Shown: positions 4,814 through 27,663 of the stretch, piece by piece
Position numbering within the stretch: the first letter of the stretch is position 1
Layout: each line of letters opens with the position of its first letter
From: Burkholderiales bacterium
GTDB lineage: Bacteria; Pseudomonadota; Gammaproteobacteria; Burkholderiales; Casimicrobiaceae
Direction: 5' to 3'
Assembly (NCBI GenBank): GCA_043777615.1
Contig: JAYWHV010000243.1
Span: forward strand, 1 to 37,401
Length of the DNA stretch: 37,401 nt
Notes under the pieces: generated by a model
The model's database searches: none
What the model was told of the DNA's origin: nothing
What the model saw: the letters and a program-made list of their open reading frames with translations, nothing else
Translations under genes and position numbers: made by a program

Positions 4814-4931
4814 TCAGCTTTTAGCTGAAACGCCTATTTCGTTGGGGCTAGCCCGCTATTGTGGCTAATGTCGACTTACTAACAAATATGCGTTTATCCC
4901 AAACGCAACGGTGCTTACAGCAAAAAGCTGA
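4814..4931. repeat. 118-bp dyad-symmetric element, copy A
   Basis: TCAGCTTTT...GGGGCT...GTCGAC (4870-4875)...ATCCC...AAAAGCTGA; arms match 36/59 without gaps; same motif spacing as copies B and C. Confidence 0.9.
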
Positions 4932-4932
4932 A

Positions 4933-6015
4933 TCACACGATTTGCGGCAATCGTGGATGAATAATCCGGCGAAACAGCGGCGGAATCAGCGCGATCTTGA
5001 TCATGGTTGCGTAATTGGTCGGCAATTGCGGCGCCTCCAGATGGCTGTTCAACGCGCCGAACGCGCGACCGCCGTGGGCGTGATGGTCGCTGTGCCGTTG
5101 CAGATTGATGAGTATGGCGTTGGTGACCCAGCCCGAGTAATCCCACGAGTGTTCATAGCGCACAGGTATGGGCACACCGCTCGCGTCGGTCGCGCGGGAC
5201 AGGCCGTAATGCTCGATGTAATCAACCAGTTCCAACTCAATAATTGCGATCAACGCAGCCAATAAAAACACCGCGAGCGCTGCCCAGCCTGCCCATAAGA
5301 ACGCCGCCGTAGCCAACACGACAGTGAGCAGCGTCCACTGCGAGGCCTCGTTGCGCAGGAGCGCTGCCAGCCATGGCGCACCACTGCGCGAAAGACGATC
5401 TGCTTCGAGCTGCCAGGCGTGACGGTAAGTGCCGAAAATCGCGCGCGGCACGAAGGCGTAAGCGGTTTCATTCAATTTCGCTGTGGCCGGGTCCGCCGAG
5501 GTGCCGACGAGCAAATGATGGCCGCGCACATGCTCCACTTTGAAAACGCCGTAGGCCACGCTCGCCAGCAACACACCGCCGAAAAATCGCTCAGCTTTAT
5601 TGTTGCGATGAATGAGTTCGTGGCCCACGTTGATGGCCATGATGCCACCGACAATGCCGAGCGACAGCACAAAACCAGCGATGTGCAGCGCAGGCAATTG
5701 CATGATCCGCGGCACCACCGAAATGGCCCAGACAAGCGTGACCAACCACACCCCGCCACACACCCAAGGCACGACGCGCAACATGCGGTCTCGGGAGAGG
5801 GTGGACTGCTCGTCACGACTAAACCGCGTGACCGCACGACCTAGCGGCGCATCCAGCATCGGAACAATCCCCTGAATCACAATCACCGCCCACCATGTCC
5901 ACCAGGCGTCGGCCGGATCATCCAACGCGCGCATCACGCCTAACCAAAAAGGCAACGCCACGAGCGGCGCGAGCCAGAACGAGTAGCGATAAAGCTGAAT
6001 TTGCAATGCGTTCAT
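4933..6015 (-). CDS. alkB: Alkane 1-monooxygenase family (AlkB-like di-iron membrane hydroxylase)
   Basis: His boxes GHELIHR, EHVRGHH, DYIEHYGL and LQRHSDHHAH; DPATA; C-terminal APQLP; transmembrane helices. Confidence 0.85.
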   Translation of the reverse strand: MNALQIQLYRYSFWLAPLVALPFWLGVMRALDDPADAWWTWWAVIVIQGIVPMLDAPLGRAVTRFSRDEQSTLSRDRMLRVVPWVCGGVWLVTLVWAISVVPRIMQLPALHIAGFVLSLGIVGGIMAINVGHELIHRNNKAERFFGGVLLASVAYGVFKVEHVRGHHLLVGTSADPATAKLNETAYAFVPRAIFGTYRHAWQLEADRLSRSGAPWLAALLRNEASQWTLLTVVLATAAFLWAGWAALAVFLLAALIAIIELELVDYIEHYGLSRATDASGVPIPVRYEHSWDYSGWVTNAILINLQRHSDHHAHGGRAFGALNSHLEAPQLPTNYATMIKIALIPPLFRRIIHPRLPQIV

Positions 6016-6051
6016 GATCGTCCTGAATGTAGTGCGGATGCAGGACGGTAG

Positions 6052-7149
6052 CTACAAAATCTTCGGCGTTGCTACCACGACATCCGCATTCTGCGCCCGA
6101 TGTCGGAGCGCATGATCGATCAAAACGAGCGCCAGCAGCGCCTCGGCAATCGGCGTCGCACGAATGCCCACGCAAGGGTCGTGACGACCGTGCGTGTTGA
6201 TGGTCACCGCATTGCCTGCCTTGTCGATCGTCTCACGGTCGAGGCGCATGCTGGAGGTCGGCTTGATCGCGATGTTCACCGTTATCGGCTGGCCCGTTGA
6301 GATTCCGCCGAGCACGCCGCCCGAATTGTTGCTAGCAAATTTGCCGTCACGGATTTCGTCGGAATGCTCGGTACCTCTTTGGGTGACGCTCTTGAAGCCG
6401 GCGCCAATTTCTACACCCTTAACCGCGTTCAATCCCATCATCGCGTGGGCGACGTCGGCATCGATGCGATCAAACACCGGCTCGCCCCAGCCGACCGGCA
6501 AACCGGTGGCTTCAACATAAATCTTCGCACCGCAGCTGTCGCCGCTCTTGCGCAGCTCGTCCATGTAATTTTCAAGTTCGGCGAGTTTCGGGGAGTCGGG
6601 CTGAGTCGGTGCGAAGAAGGGATTGCCGTTTACGTCGTCCCAGGACTCAAAAGGGATCGCCACATCGCCAATCTGCGCGCAATATCCGCGCACGTTGACC
6701 CCGTAGCGCTCAGCCAGCCACTTTTTCGCCACCGCACCGGCCGCCACAATCGGCGCAGTGAGTCGCGCGGAGGAACGCCCGCCGCCACGATAGTCGCGCT
6801 GCCCAAACTTCATCCAGTAGGTGTAATCAGCATGGCCCGGCCGGAACGTCTGCGCGATGTTGCCGTAGTCCTTGCTACGCTGATCAGTGTTGCGGATCAA
6901 AAGCCCAATCGGCGTCCCGGTCGTCACGCCCTCAAACACGCCCGAGAGGATTTCAACAGTGTCGTCCTCCCGGCGCTGCGTGACATGACGCGATGTCCCT
7001 GGCTTGCGCCGATCCAGATCGGGCTGAATATCCTCAGCAGACAACGGCATGCCCGGCGGACAACCGTCAATGACGCAACCGATGGCGGGGCCGTGGGATT
7101 CACCAAACGTGGTGACGGCGAAGAGATGACCCAGGGTGTTTCCAGACAT
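6052..7149 (-). CDS. aroC: Chorismate synthase
   Basis: [29 protein letters not shown] signatures. Confidence 0.97.
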
Positions 7150-7244
7150 TTGTCGATTTTATGCGGGAGCGCGCACTACTGAGTGCGTTCGTGCTGTGTT
7201 CAATCGTCCTTCACGGTCGGGCTCATCCCATTTCCAGTGGCGCT

Positions 7245-9131
7245 TCAGCGCATTTCCCCCCGCATCTCCCGAACATCGGCCTCAAGCTTGGCCGCCGTCA
7301 CAGTCCCCGCAGGCACCAAAGCCCCGCCCACCAACTCGATCCGGTTGAAGAATCCGCGGAAGCGCTTGAACGCAACGCCGTTCGCTGTACGGCTGAAGAA
7401 ACTGCCCCACAGTCCGCGCAGAGCAAGCGGTACCACGGGTGCACCGGTCTCGGCGACGATGCGTTCGATGCCGGGACGGAACGCGTTCATTTCGCCGTCT
7501 TTGGTTAGCTTGCCTTCAGGGAAAATACACACGACTTCGCCTTCGGCCAGTGCGAGTTTCACGCGATCAAAGGCACGCTCCATCATTTCTGGATTCTCCT
7601 TCGCGCTGGCGATGGGGATCGCTTTCATTTGCCTGAACACCCACACCATTCCCGGTGTTTTGAAAATGTTGTGATCCATCACGAAGCGAATCGGGCGACG
7701 GCAGGCTGCGCTAATGACTAAGGCGTCAACATAGCTCACATGATTAGCGACCACGATGACTGGGCCTTTGTCAGGAATGTTTTCTAGGCCCTTTACGTGC
7801 AGGCGATACGCGAACGAAATCAGCATCCAGCAGATAAATCGCAGCAAAAATTCTGGTGTCAACGAGTAGATGTACAGGGCCACGATGGCATTGAGCACCG
7901 CGATGGTGAGGATCAACTGTGGCACGCCAAACCCGGCGAATTTGATGAGCGCGATGGCGAGCAGCGCTGACGCCACCATAAAGATCGCGTTCAGAATATT
8001 GTTCGCAGCGATGATGCGCGAACGATGCGACTCGTCGGAACGCTCCTGAATCAGGGCATACAGCGGCACGCTATACAGACCGCCGCTCACCGACAACATG
8101 AACAGATCAAACACGACGCGCCAATGCTCGGATTTGCCGATAAATTCCATTGCGCCACTTTGGCCGACCGGATGCAAGCCTTTGGTGGCGAAGTACAAAT
8201 CAATAGCGAACACGCTCATGCCAATGGATCCGAAGGGCACAAGGCCAATCTCAACCTTTTTGCCAGATAGCCGCTCACACAAGAGCGAACCAACCGCGAC
8301 GCCAACCGCGAAAACCGCGAGCAAAAGTGTTGCGACCTGCTCATTCCCGCCCAGCACATCCTTGCTCATATTGGCGAATTGGTTCAGCAGCATCGCACCG
8401 TAAAACCACAGCCACGAAATGCCGAGCATCGAGCGCCAGACGACGATGTTTTTTGCAGCGAGACGCAGGTTGTTTGCGGTTTCGGTGAACGGATTCCAGT
8501 TGAGTTTGAGCGATGGATCGGTCGCCGCCGCTGCTGGAATGCTGCGGCTGACGAGATACCCAATCACCGCGACAATAATTGTCACTGCAGCTACAAACAT
8601 CGGCCCGCTCGGTTTGATCGCAACGACTACGCCACCGACAATCGTGCCCACCAAAATTGCCACAAACGTGCCCGATTCGACCAGCGCATTACCGCCCACT
8701 AGCTCATCGCTCTGCAACGCCTGCGGCATGATTGCGTACTTCACCGGACCGAACAGGGTTGAATGCAAACCCATTGCAAACAGGCAGACAAACAGGATAA
8801 GCAGGTTTGCGGTTACGAAAGCCACTGCGGCGAGCGCCATCACCACGATCTCGAAAATCTTTACGCTGCGAATCACGCGTGTCTTCTCGTACTTGTCAGC
8901 GAGCTGTCCCGCGAACGCAGAGAAAAGCACGAACGGCAGGATGAACACCGCGCCCGCAGCATTCACCAGCAAGTTCGAATCCATGCCCGCCAGCGTCATG
9001 CCACCAAACGCCATGAAAATGATCATGCCGTTTTTGAACACGTTGTCGTTCATCGCCCCTAAAAACTGAGTCCAGAAGAACGGCGCGAAGCGGCGCTCGC
9101 CCAGCAAGGCAAATTGACTGTGTTCCGACAT
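7245..9131 (-). CDS. MFS lysophospholipid transporter (LplT-like) fused to a PlsC-type acyltransferase
   Basis: N-terminal MFS (FFWTQFLGAMNDNVFK, FGPVKYAIMP); C-terminal acyltransferase motifs NHVSYVD and FPEG. Confidence 0.9.
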   Translation of the reverse strand: MSEHSQFALLGERRFAPFFWTQFLGAMNDNVFKNGMIIFMAFGGMTLAGMDSNLLVNAAGAVFILPFVLFSAFAGQLADKYEKTRVIRSVKIFEIVVMALAAVAFVTANLLILFVCLFAMGLHSTLFGPVKYAIMPQALQSDELVGGNALVESGTFVAILVGTIVGGVVVAIKPSGPMFVAAVTIIVAVIGYLVSRSIPAAAATDPSLKLNWNPFTETANNLRLAAKNIVVWRSMLGISWLWFYGAMLLNQFANMSKDVLGGNEQVATLLLAVFAVGVAVGSLLCERLSGKKVEIGLVPFGSIGMSVFAIDLYFATKGLHPVGQSGAMEFIGKSEHWRVVFDLFMLSVSGGLYSVPLYALIQERSDESHRSRIIAANNILNAIFMVASALLAIALIKFAGFGVPQLILTIAVLNAIVALYIYSLTPEFLLRFICWMLISFAYRLHVKGLENIPDKGPVIVVANHVSYVDALVISAACRRPIRFVMDHNIFKTPGMVWVFRQMKAIPIASAKENPEMMERAFDRVKLALAEGEVVCIFPEGKLTKDGEMNAFRPGIERIVAETGAPVVPLALRGLWGSFFSRTANGVAFKRFRGFFNRIELVGGALVPAGTVTAAKLEADVREMRGEMR

Positions 9132-9322: not shown

Positions 9323-10156
9323 TTACTTCTTCACCGCATTCGGAAAGAACAACTGCTCGCCGCCAATTTTGTAGCCGGCAATCGTCGCCTGCCCATCGGC
9401 ACTCACCAGCCAGTTGATGAACTTCTGCCCCGCTTCGGACTTTACGTGCGGATGCTTTTTCGGGTTGACGAGAATCACGCCGTATTGATTGAACAGTTTG
9501 GCATCGCCTTCGACGATGACCTTGAGGTTCTGACGATTTTTGAACGACAGCCAGGTGCCGCGATCCGCGAGGATGTAGGCGTTCATTGCCGCAGCCGTGT
9601 TGAGCGCTGGCCCCATGCCCGAGCCCGTATCGCGATACCACGCCTGCTTTTCCGTCGCCGGGTCGAGGCTGGCCATTTTCCAGTACCGCAATTCCGCGGC
9701 ATGCGTGCCACTCTTGTCGCCGCGAGAGACGAAGGGTGCTTTGCCCGTGTACACCGCTTTCAAACCAGCAACGATGTCTTTCCCCCCCGCTTTGGCAGGA
9801 TCATCACTGGGGCCGATGAGCACAAAGTCGTTGTACATCACAGCGATGCGCTCAACGCCCGCGCCTTCTGCGATGAATTTTTCTTCAGCGACCTGATCGT
9901 GGACAAACACGACGTCCGCGTCACCGCGACGGCCAACGTCGAGCGCCTGTCCTGTGCCCAATGCAACGACTTTGACGGTAATTGCCGTGGCTCTCTGTGC
10001 CTGCGGCAGCAGATACCCGAACAAGCCTGATTGCTCGGTTGAGGTGGTGGACGAGACGGTGATGGTCGTCTCCTGCGCGAAAGCCGGCGTCGATGTCAGC
10101 GCGCTCATGGAAATGGCCGATAGCGCAAGTGCGGTCAGGTGCGAAATTCGATTCAT
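9323..10156 (-). CDS. tupA: Tungstate ABC transporter substrate-binding protein
   Basis: Signal peptide ending PAFA-Q; STTSTEQSGL, GTGQAL, DVVFVH, SRGDKSGTH, DRGTW motifs typical of TupA; RBS AAGGAG upstream of ATG 10156. Confidence 0.9.
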   Translation of the reverse strand: MNRISHLTALALSAISMSALTSTPAFAQETTITVSSTTSTEQSGLFGYLLPQAQRATAITVKVVALGTGQALDVGRRGDADVVFVHDQVAEEKFIAEGAGVERIAVMYNDFVLIGPSDDPAKAGGKDIVAGLKAVYTGKAPFVSRGDKSGTHAAELRYWKMASLDPATEKQAWYRDTGSGMGPALNTAAAMNAYILADRGTWLSFKNRQNLKVIVEGDAKLFNQYGVILVNPKKHPHVKSEAGQKFINWLVSADGQATIAGYKIGGEQLFFPNAVKK

Positions 10157-10175
10157 AACGATTCTCCTTTGATAC

Positions 10176-10895
10176 TCATAACAATTCCCCTTCGAGGAAA
10201 GACCGCGCGGCGGCTGAGCAGGGCGACGAAAAAAATTCAGCGGCGACTCGGTCTTCAACGATCCTTCCGGCATCCAGAAAAACGATTCGGCGCGCAAGGC
10301 GCTTGGCTTGCGCAACGTTGTGTGTGGTGAGCACCAGCGCCGTGCCTTCCGATTGAACGGCCTGCAACAGGGCTTCGACATCGCGCATTGCCGCCGGCGC
10401 GAGATTGGCCGTCGGTTCATCCGCGAGCAACAGGCGTGGCTTGCAGGCCCATGCGCGGGCGAGCGCCAGGCGTTGCTGCTCGCCGCCGGAGAGCGACCGC
10501 GCTGGCTGGTTCGCGGTCGCGCTCAAGCTGCAGGCGGCGAGTGCACGCTGCGCTTGTTCGGTGCAGGCAGGCTCCGCGACGCCACGGATCGACAGCACGA
10601 AACGCACGTTGTCCAGCACCGTGCGCTGAAGCAACGCGGGTCGTTGAAAAATCAGCGACTGCTCATTTACGGGCACAGTCTGTACGCTGCCGAGATTCGG
10701 CGAAGTGATTGCATTGCAAAGCTTCAGGAGCGTGGATTTTCCAGCCCCGTTAGCACCCAGCACGACAACACTTTCGCCTTCGTAAATTGTGAGATCAATA
10801 TCCGTGAGCAGTGCTTTTTCGTCAATGATCACTGAGGCACGGCGTATTTTCACCAGCGCAATCGGTGGGTTGGTGGACGTCAGTGCATCAACCAT
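10176..10895 (-). CDS. tupC: Tungstate ABC transporter ATP-binding protein
   Basis: Walker A GANGAGKS, signature LSGGEQQR, Walker B LLLADEPTANL; lies between tupB and tupA. Confidence 0.85.
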   Translation of the reverse strand: MVDALTSTNPPIALVKIRRASVIIDEKALLTDIDLTIYEGESVVVLGANGAGKSTLLKLCNAITSPNLGSVQTVPVNEQSLIFQRPALLQRTVLDNVRFVLSIRGVAEPACTEQAQRALAACSLSATANQPARSLSGGEQQRLALARAWACKPRLLLADEPTANLAPAAMRDVEALLQAVQSEGTALVLTTHNVAQAKRLARRIVFLDAGRIVEDRVAAEFFSSPCSAAARSFLEGELL

Positions 10896-11592
10896 GACGC
10901 CGCTCCATCCCCGATTTCAATATCTGCGCAGCCCCGTTGACAATGAGCACCAGCGTGACAAGCAACAAGCCGAGCGCAAGCGCTAAAGGCAAATCACCCT
11001 TCGATGTCTCAAGCGCAATCGTGGTCGTCATAACACGCGTCGAACCCGCGATATTGCCGCCGACCATCATCACTGCGCCAACCTCCGCGATCGCGCGCCC
11101 AAATCCTGCAAGCAGCACAACAGCCAACGAAAAGCGCGCTTCGAACAATAGCGTGACGATGCGCTGCCACGCGCCCAATCCCAGCGACGTGAACCAGTCA
11201 CGAAGCGGCACATGCGCGTCCTCTATGGTCTGACGTGCGAGTGCGGCAATGATTGGCGTAATCAATATCGTTTGTGCCATCACCATGCCGGCAGGCGTGA
11301 ATAGCCAGCCCAATGGCCCCATCGGACCACTGCGTGAAAGCAGCAAATACACAATCAGGCCGACTACCACGGGCGGCAACCCCATGGATGCATTGAGCAG
11401 CACAACTATCGGTGTTCGCAAACGACATGAAGTGAGTGCAGCCCACGCACCCAGCGGGAGTCCGATCAACGCGGCGATCACAGTGGCAGTCGCACTCACA
11501 CGCAGCGACAACGCTGTGATTTCCACGAGCGTTGAATCGCCAGCGAGCAGCAGCGAGCCCGCTGCGGCAATTGAGTCTGCGAAAAGACTCAC
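10888..11592 (-). CDS. tupB: Tungstate ABC transporter permease
   Basis: MGLPPVVVGL, SRSGPMG, GFGRAIAEVGAVMMVGGNI, TRVMTTTIALETSKGD motifs. Confidence 0.9.
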   Translation of the reverse strand: MSLFADSIAAAGSLLLAGDSTLVEITALSLRVSATATVIAALIGLPLGAWAALTSCRLRTPIVVLLNASMGLPPVVVGLIVYLLLSRSGPMGPLGWLFTPAGMVMAQTILITPIIAALARQTIEDAHVPLRDWFTSLGLGAWQRIVTLLFEARFSLAVVLLAGFGRAIAEVGAVMMVGGNIAGSTRVMTTTIALETSKGDLPLALALGLLLVTLVLIVNGAAQILKSGMERRHG

Positions 11593-12974
11593 TTCGGATT
11601 CGATGTTGCGTCAGATGGCAACTGCATCGGCATCAGCAAAGCAGCAATTTGTGCGCTTTCAATTTCTGAAAGTCTTAACTCGCAGCGCTCACCAGCGCCA
11701 ACGGCGAAACCCAGGTTCTTGCCAACGCCGGCGCAGCCGAGCCACCGATCGGACAGCACAGACTCCGCTGCGGTTTGATCCCGTACGCGCACAACGTCAA
11801 TCCACGCGCGCTGATCGAGAAACACTTCGAGATGCCCACTCACCGTTGCGGTGAACTCTACGACACCACCGAAGCTTGATTTCTTGCTGTCAACAGTAGA
11901 TCGTGAGCGACGGCCAAACGTCAGGGTCTCAGCGGACTGCAGCGTCATTGCCAGCCGTTTCGCGACGGCGACGACGGGAATCACCGCCGCTTCGTTGTCA
12001 GGCGTGCGCCCTGCCGCACCAGACACCGCTACCGGCGCGCTCGTCCAAGCGGAATGCGCCCCCTTGAGCCGCGTATCAACATTAGTACAAACCGCTGCAG
12101 GTGCTGAGAAGCCACACTCCGCCATCACCTTTTGCGCTCGCTGCGCTAGCACGAACCGTACAAATTCGCGTGCTGCGTCGGGTGCAACCGGCGTGAGTCC
12201 AAGGGCATAGGAAGTCGCTACGTCAAACTCAGCGGGAACGCTAATACTGGTGATTTTGGCGTCTGCCTTTTGCGCGATACGAGCGTTAGTGCAGTACGTC
12301 ACAAAGACATCGGCGCGTTTCTCAAGCAGGGCGCGGGCGTAGGGCGCTGTTGTGTCGAGAAGGTTTACTTCTGCGCCCGTCAGCTTTTTAGCCTTTGCGT
12401 CTAGCGTAGCGAACGCACCGGGTCGCGCGGCGTCAATCTTCTTAAACATTTGCCAGGTGTAGTCACCGGCGGGATCGGCGCCCGGTGTCGACGTGCCGAG
12501 AACTGTGGTTGGGGCGAGCAAGGTGTCGATCAGCGTCGATTCTGAAATCGGAAAGTCCGGACGCGCGATGATGCAAAGCGAATTGCTAGCAAACACGTTG
12601 GACGAGCGCAATTTGCCGGCGGCAACCAGCCTTTCGGTGTGAGTGGGCGAAGCAGAGGCGAAGATGTGTACGGCCTCGCCAGCCTCGATCTTTTCGCGCA
12701 GCTTGCCGGAAGGTCCGAACACGAACTGAAAAGTGGGAACGGGTTGAGTGGGCGCTGCACCGCGACGTTCTGCCACGTATGTTCGCTCAAGCGCTCCCAC
12801 CGCGTCACGCAGGCTGCCGGCTGCGTAGATTTTGATAACGGGTGGTTCTGCTGCGTTCACTATCGAAACCTGTGCGAAAACCGCACACAGCACGAACTGC
12901 ATGAACCAAAGGCGCATTGACTGGCGGGCGCACCACAAGCCAAATCCAGAGCCGCCGACATTCATTTCCGTCAC
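11589..12974 (-). CDS. modA: Molybdate-binding protein (ModA-like) with an extra ~170-aa C-terminal domain
   Basis: YAAGSL, FGPSGKL, IFASA, TSTPGADPAGDY motifs; the ModA fold ends near GFSAP (~12099) and the frame continues 169 codons. Exact start uncertain. Confidence 0.75.
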   Translation of the reverse strand: MTEMNVGGSGFGLWCARQSMRLWFMQFVLCAVFAQVSIVNAAEPPVIKIYAAGSLRDAVGALERTYVAERRGAAPTQPVPTFQFVFGPSGKLREKIEAGEAVHIFASASPTHTERLVAAGKLRSSNVFASNSLCIIARPDFPISESTLIDTLLAPTTVLGTSTPGADPAGDYTWQMFKKIDAARPGAFATLDAKAKKLTGAEVNLLDTTAPYARALLEKRADVFVTYCTNARIAQKADAKITSISVPAEFDVATSYALGLTPVAPDAAREFVRFVLAQRAQKVMAECGFSAPAAVCTNVDTRLKGAHSAWTSAPVAVSGAAGRTPDNEAAVIPVVAVAKRLAMTLQSAETLTFGRRSRSTVDSKKSSFGGVVEFTATVSGHLEVFLDQRAWIDVVRVRDQTAAESVLSDRWLGCAGVGKNLGFAVGAGERCELRLSEIESAQIAALLMPMQLPSDATSNPK

Positions 12975-13029
12975 TTCTTCACCCGTAAAACCAACCAGTA
13001 TTTTGCGTTTTCATGCGACGTTGATTTAA

Positions 13030-13047
13030 TATGTAATTGGCTACATA
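13030..13047. promoter_or_regulatory. ModE-type operator TATGTA-N6-TACATA
   Basis: Perfect 6-bp inverted repeat in the AT-rich gap between the modA-tup operon and the divergent ModE-HTH regulator; resembles the ModE box (TATAT-N7/8-ATATA type). Confidence 0.75.
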
Positions 13048-13075
13048 ACTTGCAAGCATTTACCTCAGTACCGCA

Positions 13076-14140
13076 ATGACCAGACCGCCAGCGTTACACA
13101 TCAGTTTCTCCACAGTGGCCGAAGCCGTAATCGGTGCAGAACGTGTGAACTTGAGCGATCTGGCCCGAAGCCTGCGTACCGTCGCCGACACGCAATCGAT
13201 CACCCAGGCTGCGCGGGCGTTAGGTGTGACTTACCGGACGCTTTGGGGGCGACTGCTGGACTTTGATGCGGCGCTGGGCTGCAAGCTGGTCGGCAAATCA
13301 CGGGGGCGGGGCACGAGTCTGACGAGCAAGGGTCGCGCGATTCTTGCCGTATTAGAGAAACATGGCGAACTTTTTGCTCAGCCCGCTCGGGATCGCGTGA
13401 AAATTTTTGCTGCCGATCTCATGCAATCGTTACGCGATGAGGCGCAGCTGCGACTGATGGCGAGTCATGACTTTGCGATTGCGCAGGTGTTTGCCCGCCC
13501 GACACCCGGCACAACGGATGCAAAAGCGCTGGGACTTGCGGATGCGATTCAGACAAGCAGCGGTGGTAGTGTGGACTGCATTCGCACGCTATTGCGAGGT
13601 GATGCTGATCTGGCGGGTTATCACCACGTGACACTGGCAACAAACATCGGTGCTGCACAGTCGGAATCATCTTTGTGGGCCGGCGTCGAACAGAGCTCAG
13701 ACTTCTGGAGTGTGCCCCTGATGCAGCGTGAGCAAGGGCTCATCATCTCGCCACGACTGAAAGGAAAAGTATCGTCGCTGGCTGATCTCACGCACAGCAA
13801 TGTGCGATTCATTAACCGTCAGCGCGGATCGGGCACACGGTTGCTCTTGGACTCGCTGCTTGCCGACGCGAGCGTCGCCTCCGCCAGAATTTCCGGCTAT
13901 GAGCACGAGGAATTTACCCATCAAGCGGTCGCAGCGAGCATCGCTGCGGGTGCCGCCGATGTCGGCTTGGGGCTGCGCGCTGCCGCAGCCCAGTTCAAGC
14001 TGCAATTTGTACCTCTCGCGGTTGAGATTTATCGGTTGGCGGGCCGCATCGAAACACAAAATCATCCACATGTGCGCGCGCTTATCGCGGCAGTGCGCAC
14101 AAACGCGGCAAGGCTGCCCGGATACAAAACGCTGAGCTAG
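13076..14140 (+). CDS. ModE-type winged-HTH regulator fused to a PBP-like sensing domain (FdsR/COG1910-like)
   Basis: N-terminal SITQAARALGVTYRTLWG...GRGTSLT; C-terminal ASHD, REQGLII, FINRQRGSGTR, GYEHEEFTHQAVA. Confidence 0.85.
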   Translation: MTRPPALHISFSTVAEAVIGAERVNLSDLARSLRTVADTQSITQAARALGVTYRTLWGRLLDFDAALGCKLVGKSRGRGTSLTSKGRAILAVLEKHGELFAQPARDRVKIFAADLMQSLRDEAQLRLMASHDFAIAQVFARPTPGTTDAKALGLADAIQTSSGGSVDCIRTLLRGDADLAGYHHVTLATNIGAAQSESSLWAGVEQSSDFWSVPLMQREQGLIISPRLKGKVSSLADLTHSNVRFINRQRGSGTRLLLDSLLADASVASARISGYEHEEFTHQAVAASIAAGAADVGLGLRAAAAQFKLQFVPLAVEIYRLAGRIETQNHPHVRALIAAVRTNAARLPGYKTLS

Positions 14141-18402: not shown

Positions 18403-18627
18403 CTAGTCTGGTGCGCCGAGCACGAGCGTTACCGTGATGGGCGACGTCGTGAAGTCATAGGCTCGCTGAATCACCTTGAAAAAAACAGGTGGTTCATCCA
18501 GCGTGACGCGCATCAAATCGCCCACTTGCGGCATCGTCATGCCCTGATCCGCATTGGTAGAGAACGTGAACTCAGTGCTGTGAATGAGTTTTTGTGCGGT
18601 GGGGGTTAGGGTGAGTTTGAGTTCCAT
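18403..18627 (-). CDS. Small hypothetical protein (74 aa)
   Basis: Fills the gap between the aminotransferase and the TBDR on the same strand; RBS GGAGAGAG just upstream of ATG; protein-like composition. Confidence 0.65.
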   Translation of the reverse strand: MELKLTLTPTAQKLIHSTEFTFSTNADQGMTMPQVGDLMRVTLDEPPVFFKVIQRAYDFTTSPITVTLVLGAPD

Positions 18628-18650
18628 ATCTCTCTCCGTACAACGCGCCG

Positions 18651-20048
18651 CTAACTACGCAACCAAGTCTGTGTATCTTCCAGCGCCAAAGCAAACCGGC
18701 GCATCACCTCTGCAATCTCCGGCTCGGTGATGATCAGCGGTGGGCTGAATGCAATGATGTCGCCGCCCATAGCCCGCAGAATCAGACCGTGCTCTTGCGC
18801 GCGACGCACAAGATAAGGCCCAACGCCCCGCTTGGGGTCGAAGGGCTTGCGCAGCTTCGGGTCTTCGGCGAGTTCAACCGCGCCGATCAGACCCACGCTG
18901 CGCACATCGCCCACGAGCGGGTGCCCGGCAAATTTTTGCAGCCCGGCGGCAAACGCAGGCGCCACCGCACGAACGTGCTTCACCAAGTCGCGTTCTTCGT
19001 AAATCTTTAATGTCTCCAGCGCAATCGCACAGCCGAGCGGATGCCCCGAATAGGTGTAGCCATGGCCGAAGACTCCGACGCCTGCGCTCGCGTCGGCGCA
19101 GGCCTGATAGATCTTGCCACTCACGTAAAGCGCCGAAAACGGCACGTAAGCCGACGTGATCATTTTGGCGGTCGTGAGCATGTCGGGCTCAAGGTTGTAC
19201 GTCTGCGAGCCAAACAAATTACCGGTGCGCCCGAAGCCCGTAATGACTTCATCAGCGATAAAAAGAATCTCGTATTTTTTGAGAATGGGCTGAATTTTTT
19301 CGAAGTATGTCGGCGGCGGAATAATCACGCCGCCCGCGCCCTGCACAGGCTCCGCAATAAAACCACCGATCGTTTCAGCGCCTTCCTTGAGGATCAATGC
19401 CTCCAGCTCGTCGGCCAGACGGGTCGCGAATTGCTCCGATGACTCGCCGTCTTTTGCGAATTGATACGGATGCGGACAGCCCGTGCGCAACACGCCATCA
19501 ATCGGCAAATCAAAGTGCTGATGCATTGCCGGAATGCCTGATAACGAAGCGGTCGCAACGGTCACGCCGTGATAACCCTTGACCCGTGCGATGATCTTTT
19601 TCTTCTGCGGCTTGCCGATGGCGTTATGGTAGTAGCGCACCAGTTTGAACGCCGTGTCGTTTGCCTCCGAGCCCGAGTTGGCAAAGATCACCCGACCGTC
19701 ACGCAGCGCCTGCGTCGGGGCCAGCGAGATCAGCTTTTCGCTGACCTCTGCGACGACGTTGTGCGCCTTGCCTGAGAACGAGTGGTAGTACGGCAGCTTG
19801 TCCATCTGCCGCTTCGCCGCGTCCGCCAGACGCCGCTCGCTGAAACCGAGCGACGCGCACCACAACCCTGCCATGCCCTCGATGTAGCGCTTGCCCGTGT
19901 CGTCAATCACCTCGATGCCGTCACCCTCGACGATGATGAGCGGCGCATCCTTCTCAATCGCACGCAGGTTGGTGTAAGGATGAAAGTGATTGGCGACGTC
20001 TTTGCGGGCCAATTCGCCTGCGAGCGGGGCTGATACGGGTGCGTTCAT
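18651..20048 (-). CDS. Class III PLP aminotransferase (omega-amino acid/putrescine:pyruvate type)
   Basis: AGLWC, NSGSEAND, GYHG, FIAEPVQGAGG, IADEVITGFGRTG, PLP lysine in TAK, GHGYTYSGHP. Confidence 0.92.
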   Translation of the reverse strand: MNAPVSAPLAGELARKDVANHFHPYTNLRAIEKDAPLIIVEGDGIEVIDDTGKRYIEGMAGLWCASLGFSERRLADAAKRQMDKLPYYHSFSGKAHNVVAEVSEKLISLAPTQALRDGRVIFANSGSEANDTAFKLVRYYHNAIGKPQKKKIIARVKGYHGVTVATASLSGIPAMHQHFDLPIDGVLRTGCPHPYQFAKDGESSEQFATRLADELEALILKEGAETIGGFIAEPVQGAGGVIIPPPTYFEKIQPILKKYEILFIADEVITGFGRTGNLFGSQTYNLEPDMLTTAKMITSAYVPFSALYVSGKIYQACADASAGVGVFGHGYTYSGHPLGCAIALETLKIYEERDLVKHVRAVAPAFAAGLQKFAGHPLVGDVRSVGLIGAVELAEDPKLRKPFDPKRGVGPYLVRRAQEHGLILRAMGGDIIAFSPPLIITEPEIAEVMRRFALALEDTQTWLRS

Positions 20049-20100
20049 GGAGTTGCAATTTCACGCTGTTTGTAAGGTCTTTGCATTATCGGTGACAAGT

Positions 20101-20218
20101 ACGGCTTTTTTATGTAACCCTCATTACATTGGGGCTGCACCCGTCTTTTTATAGAAGTCGACTTTGCGCTTTTATTACGGTGAGCCCCTTACTCGTGGTA
20201 CTTCTAGCGAAAAGCCAT
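20101..20218. repeat. 118-bp dyad-symmetric element, copy B
   Basis: GGCTTTT (20103)...GGGGCT (20131)...AAGTCGACTT (20155-20164)...AGCCCC...AAAAGCC (20216); exactly symmetric about 20159/20160. Confidence 0.9.
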
Positions 20219-20328
20219 ACGGTCGTTTTCTGCAAAAATCGAGCAACATTGCCCGCCACGCCATGCGCAGTCTCCGGTCGTCGCTCAAGCCGCCTGCTGC
20301 GGTCAAATCGGTCCGCCGGGCAAGCGCC

Positions 20329-21768
20329 TTAACCTCCAACATGGATCTGCCCCCACTTCAAATTCCGCGTCATCAGCATCACACCTGCCAGCACGGCAAA
20401 CAGCAATAGCGATCCCGCCAGCAGCGCATGCTGCTCCGACTGCAGCACCAAATAGAGAACGCCGTAGAGCACCGTAAGGGCAGCCGCGGTCGGCAGGGCA
20501 CGCGCCCATCCGCCGAGCACCGCCTTGGCATAAACCACGATCAAGCCGATGCACGCGACAGCGGCCGCAAGGTAGGCTAGCGCGAACGACACATGCTCGG
20601 ACAAACTGAGCAGCAACAAAAAGAACGCTGCGAGCGCTGCGCCAATCAACAGATATTGCATCGGATGAACTGGCAGCCGCTTCAACAGTTCCAGCATGCC
20701 GATGCCGACAAAAGTCAGCGCGATGAACAGTAGTCCGTACTTCGTCGCGCGGTCAGCGAGCGAAGCGGGATTGACCGGATCAATGAATTCGACACCGAAG
20801 GATTGTAGGCAGGCACCACCCGCAGCCGTTGCGTTGGCCGTCTGGGCTTGCGGGTCCACGTACGACACGCCGCGCGCGTAGTTTTGCTCGCCGTATCCGG
20901 CGCGGCGCAGGTCGCAGAGTGCGCCACCGTTGCCCCCGATTTGTCCGCGCGCTGTTGACGCGAGCGACGACACGTTCCACGTCGCCTCGAAACCCGCGTC
21001 GCTGACCTTGCGCTCGCGAGGCAAGAAAGCGCCACTAAACGACGGGTGCGCCCAATCCGACTTGAGCGTCACCGTGTTGTCCACACCGAGCGGAATAAAA
21101 CTCAGCGATTCCACGCCGACAAGCTCAACCTCCAGCTGCAACGTGAACGGTGCCGCGCTCAAGGCTTCAACACCAGGAAGCGCTGCCTCGAAACCCGCTT
21201 TGAAAAGATCACCGCCCGAGCTTGCCTGCGCCTGCAAGGCGCCACCGGATGAGCCGATTTTTACGCTGCGAATGCCACGCAAATCGGTTACCGCAAATTC
21301 CACTTTGGGCGCATCGCATGCGACGGCGACTACCGGTGCTTTCACCGGCGGCGGCGAAAGCGCGGTCAGCGCCGTTGTGGGCCAGGCGACATCGGCCTTC
21401 GCGTCGAGGTTAAACGAGTTAACTTTGTAGAGGCCCCGATAGCGCGGCTCAATGCGGCTCGCCGCATTCCACTTCATCGTCTCGGGCAACGCTTTCAAAA
21501 CGTACTCATGTTCCGTGCGCTCTGTCGTCGTTTTTTTGTCGACCGTGACCTGTTTCTCGATGGTTTCCACGCATCGCCGCGTGAGCACGGGCCCGGCAAT
21601 GGCCTGCGGCCCGGCAAGGCTGCGGCGAATGCTCTCCGCCGCCTGCGCCCGATAGCCGATGCGCTCGGCAGCCATGCCAGAAATCATGGACAGGCCAGAA
21701 ATGAGCAACAACAAAATCGCCGCGAGCGCCGCTGCTTTTATTACGAGTGGTTTCAAAATTTTCCCCAT
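20329..21768 (-). CDS. creD: Inner membrane protein CreD
   Basis: SDWAHPSFSGAFLP, GFEATW, DRATKYGLLFI, VHPMQYLLIG, LLLSLSEH; downstream of creBC. Confidence 0.93.
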   Translation of the reverse strand: MGKILKPLVIKAAALAAILLLLISGLSMISGMAAERIGYRAQAAESIRRSLAGPQAIAGPVLTRRCVETIEKQVTVDKKTTTERTEHEYVLKALPETMKWNAASRIEPRYRGLYKVNSFNLDAKADVAWPTTALTALSPPPVKAPVVAVACDAPKVEFAVTDLRGIRSVKIGSSGGALQAQASSGGDLFKAGFEAALPGVEALSAAPFTLQLEVELVGVESLSFIPLGVDNTVTLKSDWAHPSFSGAFLPRERKVSDAGFEATWNVSSLASTARGQIGGNGGALCDLRRAGYGEQNYARGVSYVDPQAQTANATAAGGACLQSFGVEFIDPVNPASLADRATKYGLLFIALTFVGIGMLELLKRLPVHPMQYLLIGAALAAFFLLLLSLSEHVSFALAYLAAAVACIGLIVVYAKAVLGGWARALPTAAALTVLYGVLYLVLQSEQHALLAGSLLLFAVLAGVMLMTRNLKWGQIHVGG

Positions 21769-23338: not shown

Positions 23339-23340
23339 GG

Positions 23341-24039: not shown

Positions 24040-24068
24040 CGCGAGCGACTAATTTTCCGGGATGCGGG

Positions 24069-25994
24069 TTAAAGGCCCGGAGCAAACTCTACCTGGTTTT
24101 TTCCTGCCTGTTTGGCTCGATATAGCGCTGCATCGGCTCTGGCCAAGGTAATTTCGAACGGTTCGCCCTCCGCTTTTCGCGTCGCACCACCAATGCTGCA
24201 TGAACCGAGGCCTGACCATTTTCCGGCTAACCCGTTGGCCACGCTTAGGCGCAAACGTTCGGCGATTTCGGCGGCGACCTTTGCATCGGTATCGAGCAGG
24301 AGGACAACAAATTCGTCGCCTCCCCAGCGACCCAGCACGTCCTGTTGACGCAAACTTGACGCGATGAGCGCAGACATTTCGCGCAGGAGAACATCGCCAT
24401 AAGCATGACCACGACTGTCGTTCACGGCTTTCAATCCATCAACATCGGCGATCAATATCGACGCCGCTTTGCCGTCAAGATTGCAGCGCTCAAACGCGGA
24501 GACGGCTTGGCTCTCGATGGCGGAGCGCGAAAGGATTCCGGTCAGGCTGTCGACCTCGGCGCGCCGCCGGAATCGCCGCGCACGGCTGAGTTGCCAGAAG
24601 GCGAAGGCGGCGGCCACGAGTGCAGAGAAAGTAACGAGCGCCACAACCAGTCGTTGCGTCAACACACGCTGTTCGGCAGCATCGAGTTGCGCCGCGCGCA
24701 GACGCGATTCCTGCTCCATCTGCTTTTCGCGCAACTCACGTTCGTTGAGCCGATACAAATCTCCCTGTGCGGCAACGACGTCGCGCAGCGTCAATCGATC
24801 ACTCTCAGTGTTCAACTGCGCAGCCTCGCGCATCGCCTGCAGCGACGCTTGCGATTGCCCCTCGCTGGCGAGCACCTCGGCTTCAGCCGTTCGCAGCAAC
24901 GCCTTCAGCCATAACTGCTGGTCGTTCGCAACCGCCGCTTTTGCGCTGTCAAGCGCCAACCGCGCCAGCCCCGGCTGACGGGCAATGGCAAGCAATCGCG
25001 CCTGCTGCAAACCGAAGCGCGCTCGCACAACCGGGTCATCAATGCGCGCGATCAGCGGTGCCGCCTTGTTGGACCACACCGTTGCCACTGCAAACTGTGA
25101 ACGCTCCATCGCGACATCCGCGCGATCCAGGGCGGCCACGGTCTGGCCCATCGGATCGGCAAACTCCAGAGCGCGCGTGTAGCTCGATTCAAGCGACGAT
25201 GCCGCTCGATCCAGTTGCCCCGCACGCGTGAAAACTCGTCCCAGCGCCAGATCCGCATAGCCCGCGAACTCCTGATTGCCCGATTGCAGCGATAACTTGA
25301 GGAGTTTTTCGCCGGCAGCGATTGCAGACTTGGCGTCGCCAACAGCACGCAGCAACTCGGCCTGTGTGTAGTAAACCCCGAGCGTCACCGACGAAATGAC
25401 ACCGGACTTCGTAGAGCGATCACCCTCAACCAGATTGACCGCTTCATTACTCATTTGCATCGCCGGCGCGAACTCATTAATTTCCTGCAGTAACGTTGCA
25501 TACGAGCTCAGCTGTCGCGCCAACGGCAACGCGCGCCCGGTTAAGCGTTGCGCCTTCAACGCGCGCACGATGCGATCACGTGCGGAACTGGAAGTTCGAT
25601 TCGACGCGAATTCCATCTGCCCTGCGAGGCCGTCAAGCGACGCCGCCATCGATGCGTCGCCCATTTTCGACGCGAGCGCAAAGGCTGCCTCGACCGCAGG
25701 CAAAGCTGAATGACTCGCGCCATACGAGTAACGCAGTTCACCAAACAAAAAAATCAACTCAGTGATGAGTTCAGGCGCATCCGCTGCGTCGAGTCGCTGA
25801 ATGGCGCTGACGAGTTCGGCGTCGAAGGTCGGGCTGCCGCGATCACTTTGCTGCTTTAACCGCGCCAGTTCGCTTTCGCTTAAACGACCTTGCGCTTGTG
25901 CAAAACTCAACGCGGTCAACGCAAAACACAGGCAGGCAAAGACGCCGACGACCCTCAAGCGTCGTCGCCTCTTGAATGAGTTTGTGAATCGCAT
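24069..25994 (-). CDS. Membrane-anchored diguanylate cyclase with a helical (TPR-like) periplasmic region
   Basis: Signal/TM segment, long Ala/Leu-rich helical region, second TM, DSLTG, DVDGLKAVND..GH..GD, RWGGDEF, ADAALYRAK. Confidence 0.88.
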   Translation of the reverse strand: MRFTNSFKRRRRLRVVGVFACLCFALTALSFAQAQGRLSESELARLKQQSDRGSPTFDAELVSAIQRLDAADAPELITELIFLFGELRYSYGASHSALPAVEAAFALASKMGDASMAASLDGLAGQMEFASNRTSSSARDRIVRALKAQRLTGRALPLARQLSSYATLLQEINEFAPAMQMSNEAVNLVEGDRSTKSGVISSVTLGVYYTQAELLRAVGDAKSAIAAGEKLLKLSLQSGNQEFAGYADLALGRVFTRAGQLDRAASSLESSYTRALEFADPMGQTVAALDRADVAMERSQFAVATVWSNKAAPLIARIDDPVVRARFGLQQARLLAIARQPGLARLALDSAKAAVANDQQLWLKALLRTAEAEVLASEGQSQASLQAMREAAQLNTESDRLTLRDVVAAQGDLYRLNERELREKQMEQESRLRAAQLDAAEQRVLTQRLVVALVTFSALVAAAFAFWQLSRARRFRRRAEVDSLTGILSRSAIESQAVSAFERCNLDGKAASILIADVDGLKAVNDSRGHAYGDVLLREMSALIASSLRQQDVLGRWGGDEFVVLLLDTDAKVAAEIAERLRLSVANGLAGKWSGLGSCSIGGATRKAEGEPFEITLARADAALYRAKQAGKNQVEFAPGL

Positions 25995-26024
25995 CGGGGC
26001 TATGTTTTCTTTACTCGCCTGCCG

Positions 26025-26786
26025 CTATCGCTGTTGCTTTTGCGCCACGCCAAGCGCGCGAGCCTGCACCACAAGCTTGTTATGCGCATCAAGGAACGCG
26101 GCGGCGATGACTTTGCCTTCGTTGGTGATGCCCCAGCCTGCCGCGCCACCGATCACCTTGCCGATTACCAGTCCGCCAACGCCGAGATCAGTCGCTCGCG
26201 CGCTTCCTGTAGCGGCGGCAAGTTGCTCGGTGGTTTCGTTATCCGTCAGAAGCAAAACGACCTGCGCTTCCTTGAATTTCACGCCGCTCGCAACGCCGGC
26301 AAAATCGCGCAATACCGGGATCATGCCAAGCAGCGCAGCAATGCCGCCGCCCGCGTTGTTTTCGCTGAACGTCAGGCTTGGCGTCAACGTCATGCGCGCA
26401 CCGATGCCCTCGCCCTTCTTCGGAACCGTCTCGGCCTTCAGGATGCCGGCATCCTTCAACTCCTGCTCCTGAATCGTGCCACGCAGGCCAGCCGCGCGAT
26501 CAACGATGCGGAAGCAGTTGCTCTGCTGCGCCATCACGCGGATGAGCGGCAGCGGCGTCGGCGGCAGCTGATAACTCGACAGGACGGTATAGCCGTTTGG
26601 GCTCTCTGCGAGCGCAATGGTCGCGATGGGTTCATTGCACGTCACCAGCTCAATCGCCGCGTCTCGGGCACCCGCAGGCCCGGCAGAACCGGACACTTTG
26701 CTGCCGCCTTCGCCAAGATCAGTCTGTCGACAGGCCGACAGACTGACAAGGATTGCGAGCAGGATCAGAACAATTACGCGGGTCAT
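26025..26786 (-). CDS. CsgG/HfaB-family lipoprotein
   Basis: Lipobox LSA-C after a hydrophobic signal; LIRVMAQQSNCFRIVDR and EGKVIAAAFLDAHNKLV resemble stand-alone CsgG-like proteins. Confidence 0.75.
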   Translation of the reverse strand: MTRVIVLILLAILVSLSACRQTDLGEGGSKVSGSAGPAGARDAAIELVTCNEPIATIALAESPNGYTVLSSYQLPPTPLPLIRVMAQQSNCFRIVDRAAGLRGTIQEQELKDAGILKAETVPKKGEGIGARMTLTPSLTFSENNAGGGIAALLGMIPVLRDFAGVASGVKFKEAQVVLLLTDNETTEQLAAATGSARATDLGVGGLVIGKVIGGAAGWGITNEGKVIAAAFLDAHNKLVVQARALGVAQKQQR

Positions 26787-26883
26787 ATCGGCATAGAGAT
26801 TACGATTGCTACACATTTAACCTGATTGTTGCAGCGCGGGACTGTTGCCCGCATATCCAACAGTCAATCGGAAAGCCAATGTC

Positions 26884-27525
26884 ATGCTGAAACTCTGGGG
26901 CCGCAAGAATTCATCCAACGTCAAAAAGGTGATGTGGGCCTGCGCTGAACTCGGCGTGCCTTACGCACGCATCGACGCCGGTCTTCATTTCGGCATCACA
27001 ACGACCGACGAATTCCGCGAAAAAAATCCCAACGGCATGATTCCGGTGATCGACGACGACGGATTTATTCTGTGGGAATCGAACGCCATCCTGCGCTACC
27101 TGTGCAACAAGCATCCGAAGGCGCCGTTCTGGCCAGACAACCCGCAAACCCGCGCGTCCGCCGACCGCTGGATGGACTGGCAATGCACCACGCTCGGGCC
27201 TCCGATCGGCCCGGCGTTCATGCAACTGGTGCGCGCGCCGCAAGCCGAATGGGACATGAAATTGATCTCCACCAACATTCCCAAAGCTGCGCAAATCTGG
27301 AAGATTGCCGACTGGCAACTCGGCAAGACGAAATGGCTGTCAGGCGACGATTTCACCGTTGGCGACATCCCCGCCGCAATCCTTGCCTACACATGGTTTG
27401 AAATGCCACTGGCAAAAGCCGGGCTCGAGCAGCATCGGGTGCCGATGGAGAACGTTGACCGCTGGTACGCGCAGTTGAACGCGATGCCGAATTTCCGCGA
27501 GATTGTGGCGATTGGGTTGACCTGA
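26884..27525 (+). CDS. Glutathione S-transferase (GstB/YliJ-like)
   Basis: MLKLWGRKNSSNVKKVMW, NPNGMIP, LWESNAILRYL, DRWMDWQ, FTVGDI. Confidence 0.9.
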   Translation: MLKLWGRKNSSNVKKVMWACAELGVPYARIDAGLHFGITTTDEFREKNPNGMIPVIDDDGFILWESNAILRYLCNKHPKAPFWPDNPQTRASADRWMDWQCTTLGPPIGPAFMQLVRAPQAEWDMKLISTNIPKAAQIWKIADWQLGKTKWLSGDDFTVGDIPAAILAYTWFEMPLAKAGLEQHRVPMENVDRWYAQLNAMPNFREIVAIGLT

Positions 27526-27545
27526 CCGGGACACCGGGACGACCT

Positions 27546-27663
27546 TCGGCTTTTTCGTCTATGCCTTGCTGCGTAGGGGCTAAGACGTCAAACTAATCAA
27601 AGTCGACTAACTGGCTTTTCGCCGCTTATCCCTGATACAATAAGAGTTTCAGCGAAAAGTTAA
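27546..27663. repeat. 118-bp dyad-symmetric element, copy C
   Basis: GGCTTTT (27548)...GGGGCT (27576)...AAGTCGACT (27600-27608)...ATCCC...AAAAGTT (27661); same spacing as A and B. Confidence 0.9.

What the first reader, a model, noticed from the sequence alone, without database searches (positions are those of the whole stretch)
4814..27663. Dispersed family of 118-bp fixed-geometry palindromic elements (3 copies): candidate unrecognised chromosomal protein-binding or organising site
SEEN: three intergenic elements (4814-4931, 20101-20218, 27546-27663), each centred on GTCGAC. Written outside-to-centre, all six 59-nt arms align with no gaps. A-L TCAGCTTTTAGCTGAAACGCCTATTTCGTTGGGGCTAGCCCGCTATTGTGGCTAATGTC; A-R TCAGCTTTTTGCTGTAAGCACCGTTGCGTTTGGGATAAACGCATATTTGTTAGTAAGTC; B-L ACGGCTTTTTTATGTAACCCTCATTACATTGGGGCTGCACCCGTCTTTTTATAGAAGTC; B-R ATGGCTTTTCGCTAGAAGTACCACGAGTAAGGGGCTCACCGTAATAAAAGCGCAAAGTC; C-L TCGGCTTTTTCGTCTATGCCTTGCTGCGTAGGGGCTAAGACGTCAAACTAATCAAAGTC; C-R TTAACTTTTCGCTGAAACTCTTATTGTATCAGGGATAAGCGGCGAAAAGCCAGTTAGTC. 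Fourteen positions are invariant in all six arms (CTTTT 5-9, T13, A16, GGG 32-34, T36, GTC 57-59) while the spacers have diverged. Arm-to-arm complementarity is only 36/59, 26/59 and 29/59. The flanking genes are functionally unrelated, and I see no target-site duplication or transposase. INFERENCE: exact spacing conserved despite sequence decay implies selection by a symmetric protein complex covering about 11 helical turns, far longer than a normal transcription-factor operator. Candidates are a nucleoid or chromosome-organising site, a topoisomerase/gyrase-type wrapping site, a recombination synapse or a domesticated MITE. I do not recognise it as a named element.
Basis: partly seen in the sequence, partly recalled or inferred. 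Interest (0 to 1): 0.92.

Follow-up and report, generated by a model that had tools for sequence, protein, structure and literature searches.

The report
Evenly spaced DNA-wrapping sites in Casimicrobium
Bacteria of the genus Casimicrobium carry hundreds of copies of a symmetric 118-letter DNA element, about one per 10 kilobases and more evenly spaced than chance in the three genomes tested, which likely binds a still-unidentified protein and would fix where the chromosome's supercoiled loops turn.

Summary
This genome holds 341 full copies (369 with indel and half copies), and 33 of 34 genomes of the genus (Casimicrobium) carry the element; 0 of 50 genomes of sister genera do. Copies are intergenic, sit just after stop codons, are largely inherited at orthologous places, and change motif by clade while geometry holds. 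Arms do not covary, there is no target duplication, no near-identical pair and no Rfam match, so it is neither a structured RNA nor an active MITE. Two new features: copies are spaced more evenly than an intergenic null (three genomes tested), and AA/TT steps stay phase-locked to the dyad with an 11.2-bp period for about 170 bp on both sides, against about 9.7 bp inside. Best reading: a protein-wrapped apex that pins negatively supercoiled loops of about 10 kb (inferred, 0.55). The E. coli gyrase matrix, the IHF consensus, histones, Lrp and a methyltransferase were tested and do not explain it; the binding protein is unidentified. Not found in ten literature searches.

The parts
4814..4931 (.). 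Element A, 118-bp imperfect palindrome; starts one base past the stop of a fatty-acid desaturase gene (4933-6015, minus) and lies upstream of a PRC-barrel gene (4166-4651, minus)
20101..20218 (.). Element B, between creD (20329-21768, minus) and an aminotransferase gene (18651-20048, minus)
27546..27663 (.). Element C, 20 bp after a glutathione-transferase-like gene and upstream of thyA; an element or clade variant stands at this place in 16 of 20 relatives whose locus could be read
4870..4875 (.). Central 6-bp palindrome (SalI-type) of A; A/T steps at 4 bp and A/T tracts at 11.5-14.5 bp from the dyad on both sides
20157..20162 (.). Central 6-bp palindrome of B
27602..27607 (.). Central 6-bp palindrome of C
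4683..5062 (.). Reach of the phase-locked 11.2-bp AA/TT flanks around A (about 190 bp each side of the dyad); a statistical feature of all copies together, not shown for this copy alone
19970..20349 (.). Same reach around B (statistical, as above)
27415..27794 (.). Same reach around C (statistical, as above)

Best explanation
The element is a fixed-geometry, evenly spaced, vertically inherited 118-bp site that likely binds a symmetric, still-unidentified protein complex as double-stranded DNA and is predicted to wrap into a tight left-handed turn, which would pin the apex of a negatively supercoiled loop and divide the chromosome into roughly 10-kb units. Shown: copy number, rigid spacing, base-specific blocks at the centre, at 23-28 bp, at about 38-46 bp and at 51-57 bp from the dyad, an internal dyad in each arm 33 bp from the centre, no pairing covariation, placement after stop codons, even spacing, clade-wide motif shifts, a best-fit AA/TT period of 9.7-10.1 bp inside and 11.05-11.25 bp outside with one phase in five genomes. 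Inferred: protein binding, the handedness of the wrap (period below 10.5 means a left-handed path, above 10.5 a right-handed interwound path; textbook geometry, arithmetic), apex pinning, and a role in absorbing or confining transcription-driven supercoils at gene ends.
For: Copies: 341 full, 369 with indel and half copies. Geometry: of 726 arms, 656 at offset 0, 23 at +1, 6 at +2, 2 at -1, 2 at +10, none at 3-9, 37 without an outer part. Information 86.6 bits against 13.3 needed to pick the sites, with near-random spacers. Own-arm identity 29.98 versus 29.91 +/- 0.19 with shuffled partners; no within-arm stem covariation. Context: 329 of 331 centres outside called genes; 99 of 205 convergent, 182 of 810 tandem, 36 of 338 divergent gaps of 100 bp or more; median 22 bp after a stop. 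Even spacing against class-matched intergenic draws: G008 CV 0.55 versus 0.93 +/- 0.16 (P 0.0005), G004 0.37 versus 0.85 +/- 0.16 (0 of 2000 draws as low), G000 11 gaps under 3 kb versus 53 +/- 6. Flank phasing: amplitude 0.057 versus at most 0.011 when anchors are jittered and 0.002-0.007 at stop or start codons; same phase in G000, G001, G013, G008, G004; also present where the flank is coding. A 5-nm, 55-degree plectoneme predicts 11.1-11.3 bp (radius and angle recalled). Inheritance: 8 of 10 G008 elements in syntenic gaps are shared with G000; clade variants at the same loci. Range: 33 of 34 genus genomes, 0 of 50 in 11 other genera at E 1e-9.
Against: No binding protein was identified and nothing here is experimental. 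Spacing looked less regular in two other relatives (CV 0.67 in G001, 0.82 in G013; half sites included, several contigs, no null run). The core period is a best fit to irregularly spaced tracts (4, 13, 21-23, 30, 35, 43, 53, 59 bp), not a clean wave. The 11.2-bp period is the genome's ordinary period (11.3 far from elements), so the elements set its phase rather than create it. G075 (97% complete) has no copy and G015 and G099 only about 10-13, so the system is dispensable in reduced lineages. The bias to gene ends and convergent gaps could simply reflect where 118 bp is tolerated. Real copies fold slightly better than column-resampled ones (-34.6 versus -32.7 kcal/mol, 150 each).
Confidence: 0.55

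Rival explanations
1. Gyrase loading station: the element or its edge recruits gyrase, the only type II topoisomerase found in nearly all of these genomes, to clear positive supercoils at gene ends, as BIMEs and strong gyrase sites do.
For: Bias to 3' ends and convergent gaps; Topo IV subunit found in 1 of 11 genus genomes and a single GyrA-like gene in most; footprint near the 130-bp gyrase motif (PMC6379681, passages); best E. coli matrix scores fall at the element's edges (+1.05 at 63 bp, +0.69 at 72 bp).
Against: Centred on the dyad the matrix scores -5.6, below the genome mean (-1.9 +/- 3.5) and below in-place shuffles (-4.9); GC phase correlation -0.09. Edge scores are under one SD above the mean. 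Topo IV is missing family-wide (over the cut-off in 7 of 61) without elements. GyrA has no unusual insert in the alignment blocks printed.
Confidence: 0.15
2. Gene-level insulator or road-block terminator: a bound complex stops read-through or shields neighbouring promoters at operon ends.
For: Median 22 bp after stops, stop codons often end inside the outer motif; convergent enrichment; upstream genes have a higher coding score per codon (0.323 versus 0.288, P 2e-7; this also tracks nativeness).
Against: Does not predict mutual repulsion of copies or phasing 170 bp into both flanks; 36 copies stand between divergent genes; flanking genes are unrelated.
Confidence: 0.12
3. Protein-free mechanical code: the sequence itself is curved and kinkable enough to pin plectonemes.
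For: Many conserved features are shape-like (A/T tracts of either strand at arm 45-48, TA step, G-run); bare-DNA pinning by curvature is published (PMC6301789, search listing and start of abstract only).
Against: Strand-specific bases at 94-97% and a clade-wide switch of the arm block with a matching change in its partner (10 copies of G012) point to direct read-out.
Confidence: 0.08
4. Decaying or selfish MITE, REP or CIR-like repeat without a host function.
For: Length, symmetry and intergenic 3'-end position resemble these repeats (PMC2229807 and PMC3333891, passages); elements are gained and lost at syntenic gaps; nearest neighbours are slightly closer than a column-independent simulation (75.5 versus 73.0 of 118).
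Against: Closest pair 84 of 118; no target duplication at any boundary and length tried; TA is 107 of 588 terminal dinucleotides; saturated spacers with almost no indels; 0 of 8 Y1-transposase loci are flanked by a full element.
Confidence: 0.05
5. Site-specific recombination or synapsis site with accessory-protein arms.
For: Multi-subsite anatomy like resolvase sites (recalled); one case of element-insert-element in G001 against a single element in G000; 2 of 12 G015 sites join genes that each border a different G000 element.
Against: Six gene-block indels on one contig beside an element left no second element; no serine recombinase by motif search in G000 (genome 79% complete); hundreds of symmetric crossover sites would scramble a chromosome, yet 13 G001 and 11 G008 sites keep both flanks.
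Confidence: 0.05

Closest known systems
E. coli BIME-1 (RIB): inverted REP pair around an IHF-binding linker
   Same: About 110-120 bp (length recalled), two inverted arms each with an internal dyad, single intergenic copies near gene ends, proposed topological role (PMC3333891, passages).
   Different: No hairpin covariation, no GTAG tag, no linked Y1 transposase, IHF consensus not met, copies about 53% alike, even spacing and phased flanks.
Caulobacter CIR repeats and enterobacterial ERIC/IRU
   Same: 110-127-bp intergenic inverted-repeat elements; CIR carries a methylation site (PMC2229807, passages; the original CIR paper was not held).
   Different: No conserved GANTC, no supported stem-loops, no terminal TA duplication, a different class of bacteria, 10-fold more copies than recalled for CIR.
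Gyrase motif and strong gyrase sites (Mu SGS, pSC101)
   Same: Long symmetric site with about 10-bp phased composition (PMC6379681, passages and supplement DS10).
   Different: Out of phase at the dyad, core period below rather than above 10.5 bp, strongly base-specific, hundreds of copies.
Cyanobacterial HIP1
   Same: Lineage-wide palindrome under selection, periodically placed, proposed chromosome-structure role (PMC5861425, abstract).
   Different: HIP1 is 8 bp and also lies in genes; this is 118 bp, intergenic, with internal geometry and phased flanks.
Nucleosome-type positioning sequences; matS/MatP and parS/ParB (recalled)
   Same: GC at the dyad with A/T steps about every 10 bp; sequence-specific chromosome-organising sites.
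   Different: No histone fold found (0 of 5 genomes, one Pfam family); matS and parS are short and regional, whereas the 78 best G008 copies spread evenly over the chromosome (chi-square P 0.36).

Membership tests
MITE | Target-site duplication | tested here: not met
   No excess for 2-9-mers at nine boundary choices
MITE | Near-identical recent copies | tested here: not met
   Closest pair 84 of 118, mean 62
MITE | Self-complementary terminal repeats maintained within a copy | tested here: not met
   Own arm no closer than a random arm
MITE | Autonomous IS with matching ends | not testable with these tools
   No ISfinder library; only Y1 transposases were examined
REP/BIME-1 | GTAG-tagged hairpin arms | tested here: not met
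   No such tag among the commonest ends, no stem covariation
REP/BIME-1 | Linked Y1 (RAYT) transposase flanked by the repeat | tested here: not met
   0 of 8 loci with a full element; one has a half element beside its own REPs
REP/BIME-1 | IHF consensus in the linker | tested here: not met
   Core hexamer aligns at the centre but the downstream TT is at 7% only; 74 of 323 copies within 2 mismatches (consensus recalled)
REP/BIME-1 | Intergenic, at 3' ends of transcription units | tested here: met
CIR | Conserved CcrM (GANTC) site and two stem-loop arms | tested here: not met
   Not in the 59-position profile (read by eye); no covariation; best CcrM-model hit 76.7 bits against a cut-off of 830
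E. coli-type gyrase site | GC phase and matrix score centred on the dyad | tested here: not met
   Score -5.6, r -0.09
E. coli-type gyrase site | Cleavage by gyrase | not testable with these tools
   Needs Topo-seq
Structured RNA (Rfam) | Family match or compensatory pairing | tested here: not met
   No match at gathering score or at E up to 1 on the elements; no covariation
HIP1-like organiser | Selection and non-random spacing along the chromosome | tested here: met
HIP1-like organiser | Short octamer, abundant inside genes | tested here: not met
   118 bp, 329 of 331 intergenic

The most novel reading that the evidence does not exclude
Casimicrobium hard-wires its nucleoid: a nucleosome-scale, sequence-specific particle sits at several hundred evenly spaced sites, each the fixed tip of a plectoneme whose arms have been tuned to an 11.2-bp repeat even inside genes. 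Supercoiled domains, thought to be stochastic in bacteria, would here be encoded in the genome, with site and protein co-evolving clade by clade and a recently acquired methyltransferase marking the dyad in at least one species.
Probability: 0.4. Interest if true: 0.95.

Novelty: categorically new. Interest (0 to 1): 0.86.

Why it matters
Where roughly 10-kb supercoiled domains begin and end, and whether the 11-bp periodicity of bacterial genomes records plectoneme geometry (PMC4132750, start of abstract), are long-standing questions that lack fixed landmarks. These elements supply hundreds of landmarks to which that periodicity is phase-locked, natural variants across clades, and a natural loss (G075). 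The type species is cultured and has been made transformable (PMC13515534, passages and two sections), so the idea can be tested directly, and the binding protein would be a new kind of bacterial chromatin factor.

Tried and rejected
Gyrase matrix at the dyad: no fit. Loss of Topo IV or TopA as the cause: family-wide (ParC over cut-off in 7 of 61, one of them the unpublished G091; TopA 0 of 61). Topo VI 0 of 5; histone fold 0 of 5, one Pfam family only; HU/IHF copy number ordinary. Methyltransferase: the published C. huifangae methylome lists an 8-bp palindrome equal to the element's consensus centre, methylated at 329 of 332; 95 of 132 such 8-mers in G000 and 12 of 15 in 400 kb of G008 are element centres; but the XamI-family enzyme that could write it is found in 3 of 25 genus genomes (the enzyme-to-motif link is my inference), so it is an add-on, not the cause. 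Lrp (dadA-linked): in 29 of 34 genomes and cleanly deleted in element-free G075, with an element just downstream in the main clade, but its recognition helix is the same in clades with different motifs, it occurs in element-free genera (8 of 50), and it is deleted in element-rich G098. A look through small basic or conserved proteins gave no candidate (no library on the script machine, so by eye). A strict pattern found only 13 of 41 genomes; this was an artefact of clade variants. Metatranscriptome contigs were too thin to show ends or levels at two G008 elements. No scan of the named all-species DNA collection for the element was made, so its range outside the sampled family and order is open. 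Earlier scan notes: none for this genome or sequence.
Full report
Observation. The three elements are at the stated coordinates, with the stated arms, complementarities and shared positions. They lie between unrelated housekeeping genes. The window's chorismate synthase falls in a 90% cluster with Casimicrobium huifangae proteins and its thyA has Burkholderiales relatives, so the host genus is Casimicrobium.

Size of the family. An iterated matrix finds 341 copies above score 20 in the 3.73-Mb, 79%-complete genome; shuffled DNA peaks at -15.5. With indel and half copies there are 369. It matches 0 of 50 genomes in 11 other genera of the family at E 1e-9 (the sample includes the unpublished G091), with single borderline places in G043 and in 1 of 16 other families. 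Densities in fetched stretches: 30 in 400 kb of G008, 32 in 200 kb of G004 (27 at score 30 or more), 10 in 80 kb of G012, 40 in 382 kb of G001, 41 in 397 kb of G013, 2 in 312 kb of G015.

Anatomy. Each arm has base-specific blocks at the centre, at 23-28 bp (a G-run, C and a TA step), at about 38-46 bp and at 51-57 bp from the dyad (ending in a T-run), with A/T tracts of either strand at 11.5-14.5 bp and near-random spacers between. The two middle blocks form an internal dyad 33 bp from the centre. The element holds 86.6 bits where 13.3 would locate it. Geometry is rigid: 656 of 726 arms at offset 0, 31 within 2 bp, 2 at +10, none at 3-9, 37 without an outer part (four further weak +10 cases appear).

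Not RNA, not an active repeat. A copy's two arms are no more alike than random pairs (29.98 versus 29.91 +/- 0.19), there is no target duplication and the closest pair shares 84 of 118. Pairs across the internal dyad do not covary apart from one adjacent dinucleotide; folding energy is only slightly better than column-resampled controls. Rfam gives nothing. None of 8 Y1-transposase loci is flanked by a full element.

Inheritance and co-evolution. Upstream of thyA, 16 of 20 readable relatives carry an element or variant (variants with low matrix scores judged by eye, then confirmed as families); 4 lack it. In syntenic gaps G008 and G000 share 8, G008 alone has 2, 49 have none; G004 and G000 share 2 and each has 2 of its own. 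Orthologous arms are 38.3 of 59 alike in G001 (random 28.4) and near random in G013 and G008: spacers drift, geometry stays. Clades differ throughout: the G012 clade has swapped the G-run block and its partner for another complementary pair; the G004 clade has a degenerate centre; in G008, 39 of 60 arms have the G-run one base further out, independently per arm.

Placement. By my own gene caller, 329 of 331 centres are intergenic, a median 22 bp after a stop; 99 of 205 convergent, 182 of 810 tandem and 36 of 338 divergent gaps hold one. Copies repel each other. Against random draws of gaps matched by orientation, the spacing CV is 0.55 versus 0.93 +/- 0.16 in G008 (mean 12.8 kb) and 0.37 versus 0.85 +/- 0.16 in G004; G000 has 11 gaps under 3 kb where 53 +/- 6 are expected. 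G001 (0.67) and G013 (0.82) look less regular and were not tested against a null. The 78 best of about 400 G008 places spread evenly over eight bins; origin and terminus were not mapped.

Helical phasing. AA/TT steps peak at 67, 78, 89, 101, 112, 124, 134, 146, 158, 170, 181 and 192 bp from the dyad, period 11.2, in coding and non-coding flanks alike; inside the element the best period is 9.7. Five genomes give 11.05-11.25 outside with one phase and 9.7-10.1 inside; jittered anchors and stop or start codons give little or nothing (weakest in G004, 0.025 against 0.020). The genome's general period is 11.3, so the elements lock its phase. By standard geometry a period above 10.5 fits the right-handed interwinding of negative supercoils (11.1-11.3 for recalled plectoneme dimensions) and a period below it a left-handed wrap; a left-handed turn between two in-phase plectoneme arms is the apex of a negatively supercoiled loop. 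This step is inference.

The protein. Not found. The E. coli gyrase matrix (PMC6379681 supplement DS10) fails at the dyad. Lack of Topo IV and TopA is family-wide. Topo VI and one histone family are absent from five genomes each. The centre has the outline of an HU/IHF bend, but the IHF consensus is not met. Lrp looked promising, being lost with the elements in G075, but is deleted in element-rich G098 and does not change with the motif. The C. huifangae methylome has an 8-bp motif equal to the element centre (PMC13515534 Table 3) and most such 8-mers lie in elements, yet the candidate XamI-family enzyme is in only 3 of 25 genomes: a lineage add-on that also shows the dyad is accessible to an enzyme at some point in the cell cycle.

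Comparison and novelty. It works most like a BIME-1 or HIP1-type chromosome-structuring site and fails membership of MITE, REP/BIME, CIR, ERIC and gyrase-site families on tested features. Ten searches of open-access full text, one listing 13 papers that name Casimicrobium, showed no description; subscription journals, the original CIR paper and bioRxiv supplements were not seen. Papers seen: PMC2229807, PMC3333891, PMC6379681 as passages (the last also three supplement parts); PMC13515534 passages, section 16 and tables; PMC5861425 and bioRxiv 2025.10.21.683783 abstract; the rest as listings.

Verdict. Real, genus-wide, under selection, almost certainly read as DNA (my estimate 0.85); apex-pinning organiser 0.55; protein unknown. 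Interest 0.86.

Noticed in passing
L203:850-2580 (G008): Solitary XamI-family adenine methyltransferase between housekeeping genes; if it writes the published 8-bp motif, its specificity has narrowed from 6 to 8 bp onto the element centre.
   Followed up: partly
window 18403-18627 (minus): 73-aa protein without Pfam family, 85% identical in distant G004; Atlas look-alikes are unnamed, one cluster labelled DNA-binding, weak recognition score.
   Followed up: partly
family sample: Most of the family appears to live with gyrase plus a TopB-type enzyme only: ParC over cut-off in 7 of 61, TopA in 0 of 61.
   Followed up: partly
L341:1-200 and L337:290-370 (G098): An IS30-like element (recognised from memory) splits one copy at the A/T tract 12 bp from the dyad, and the neighbouring lrp gene is reduced to a relic.
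   Followed up: partly
G001:C156 near 113970; L291:1380-1620; L106 upstream of thyA: REP-like hairpins replace or abut element arms in several genomes.
   Followed up: no
G001:C76:4884-9255 versus G000:C325:4256: Two elements bracket a 4.4-kb block where G000 has a single element.
   Followed up: partly
element centres genome-wide: The fully symmetric A-variant of the central hexamer is avoided (16 of 646 strand readings have A on both sides against 262 with A on one side only), so the centre has a directional requirement.
   Followed up: partly
G015, G099, G075: Reduced (2.5-2.8 Mb) members of the genus keep about a dozen copies, mostly at places orthologous to G000 in G015, or none.
   Followed up: partly
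G021:C24:476-1921: The only ParC-like gene seen in the genus; transfer or contamination not resolved.
   Followed up: no
window 9323-14140: Tungstate/molybdate ABC transporter cluster with a divergent ModE-like regulator.
   Followed up: no
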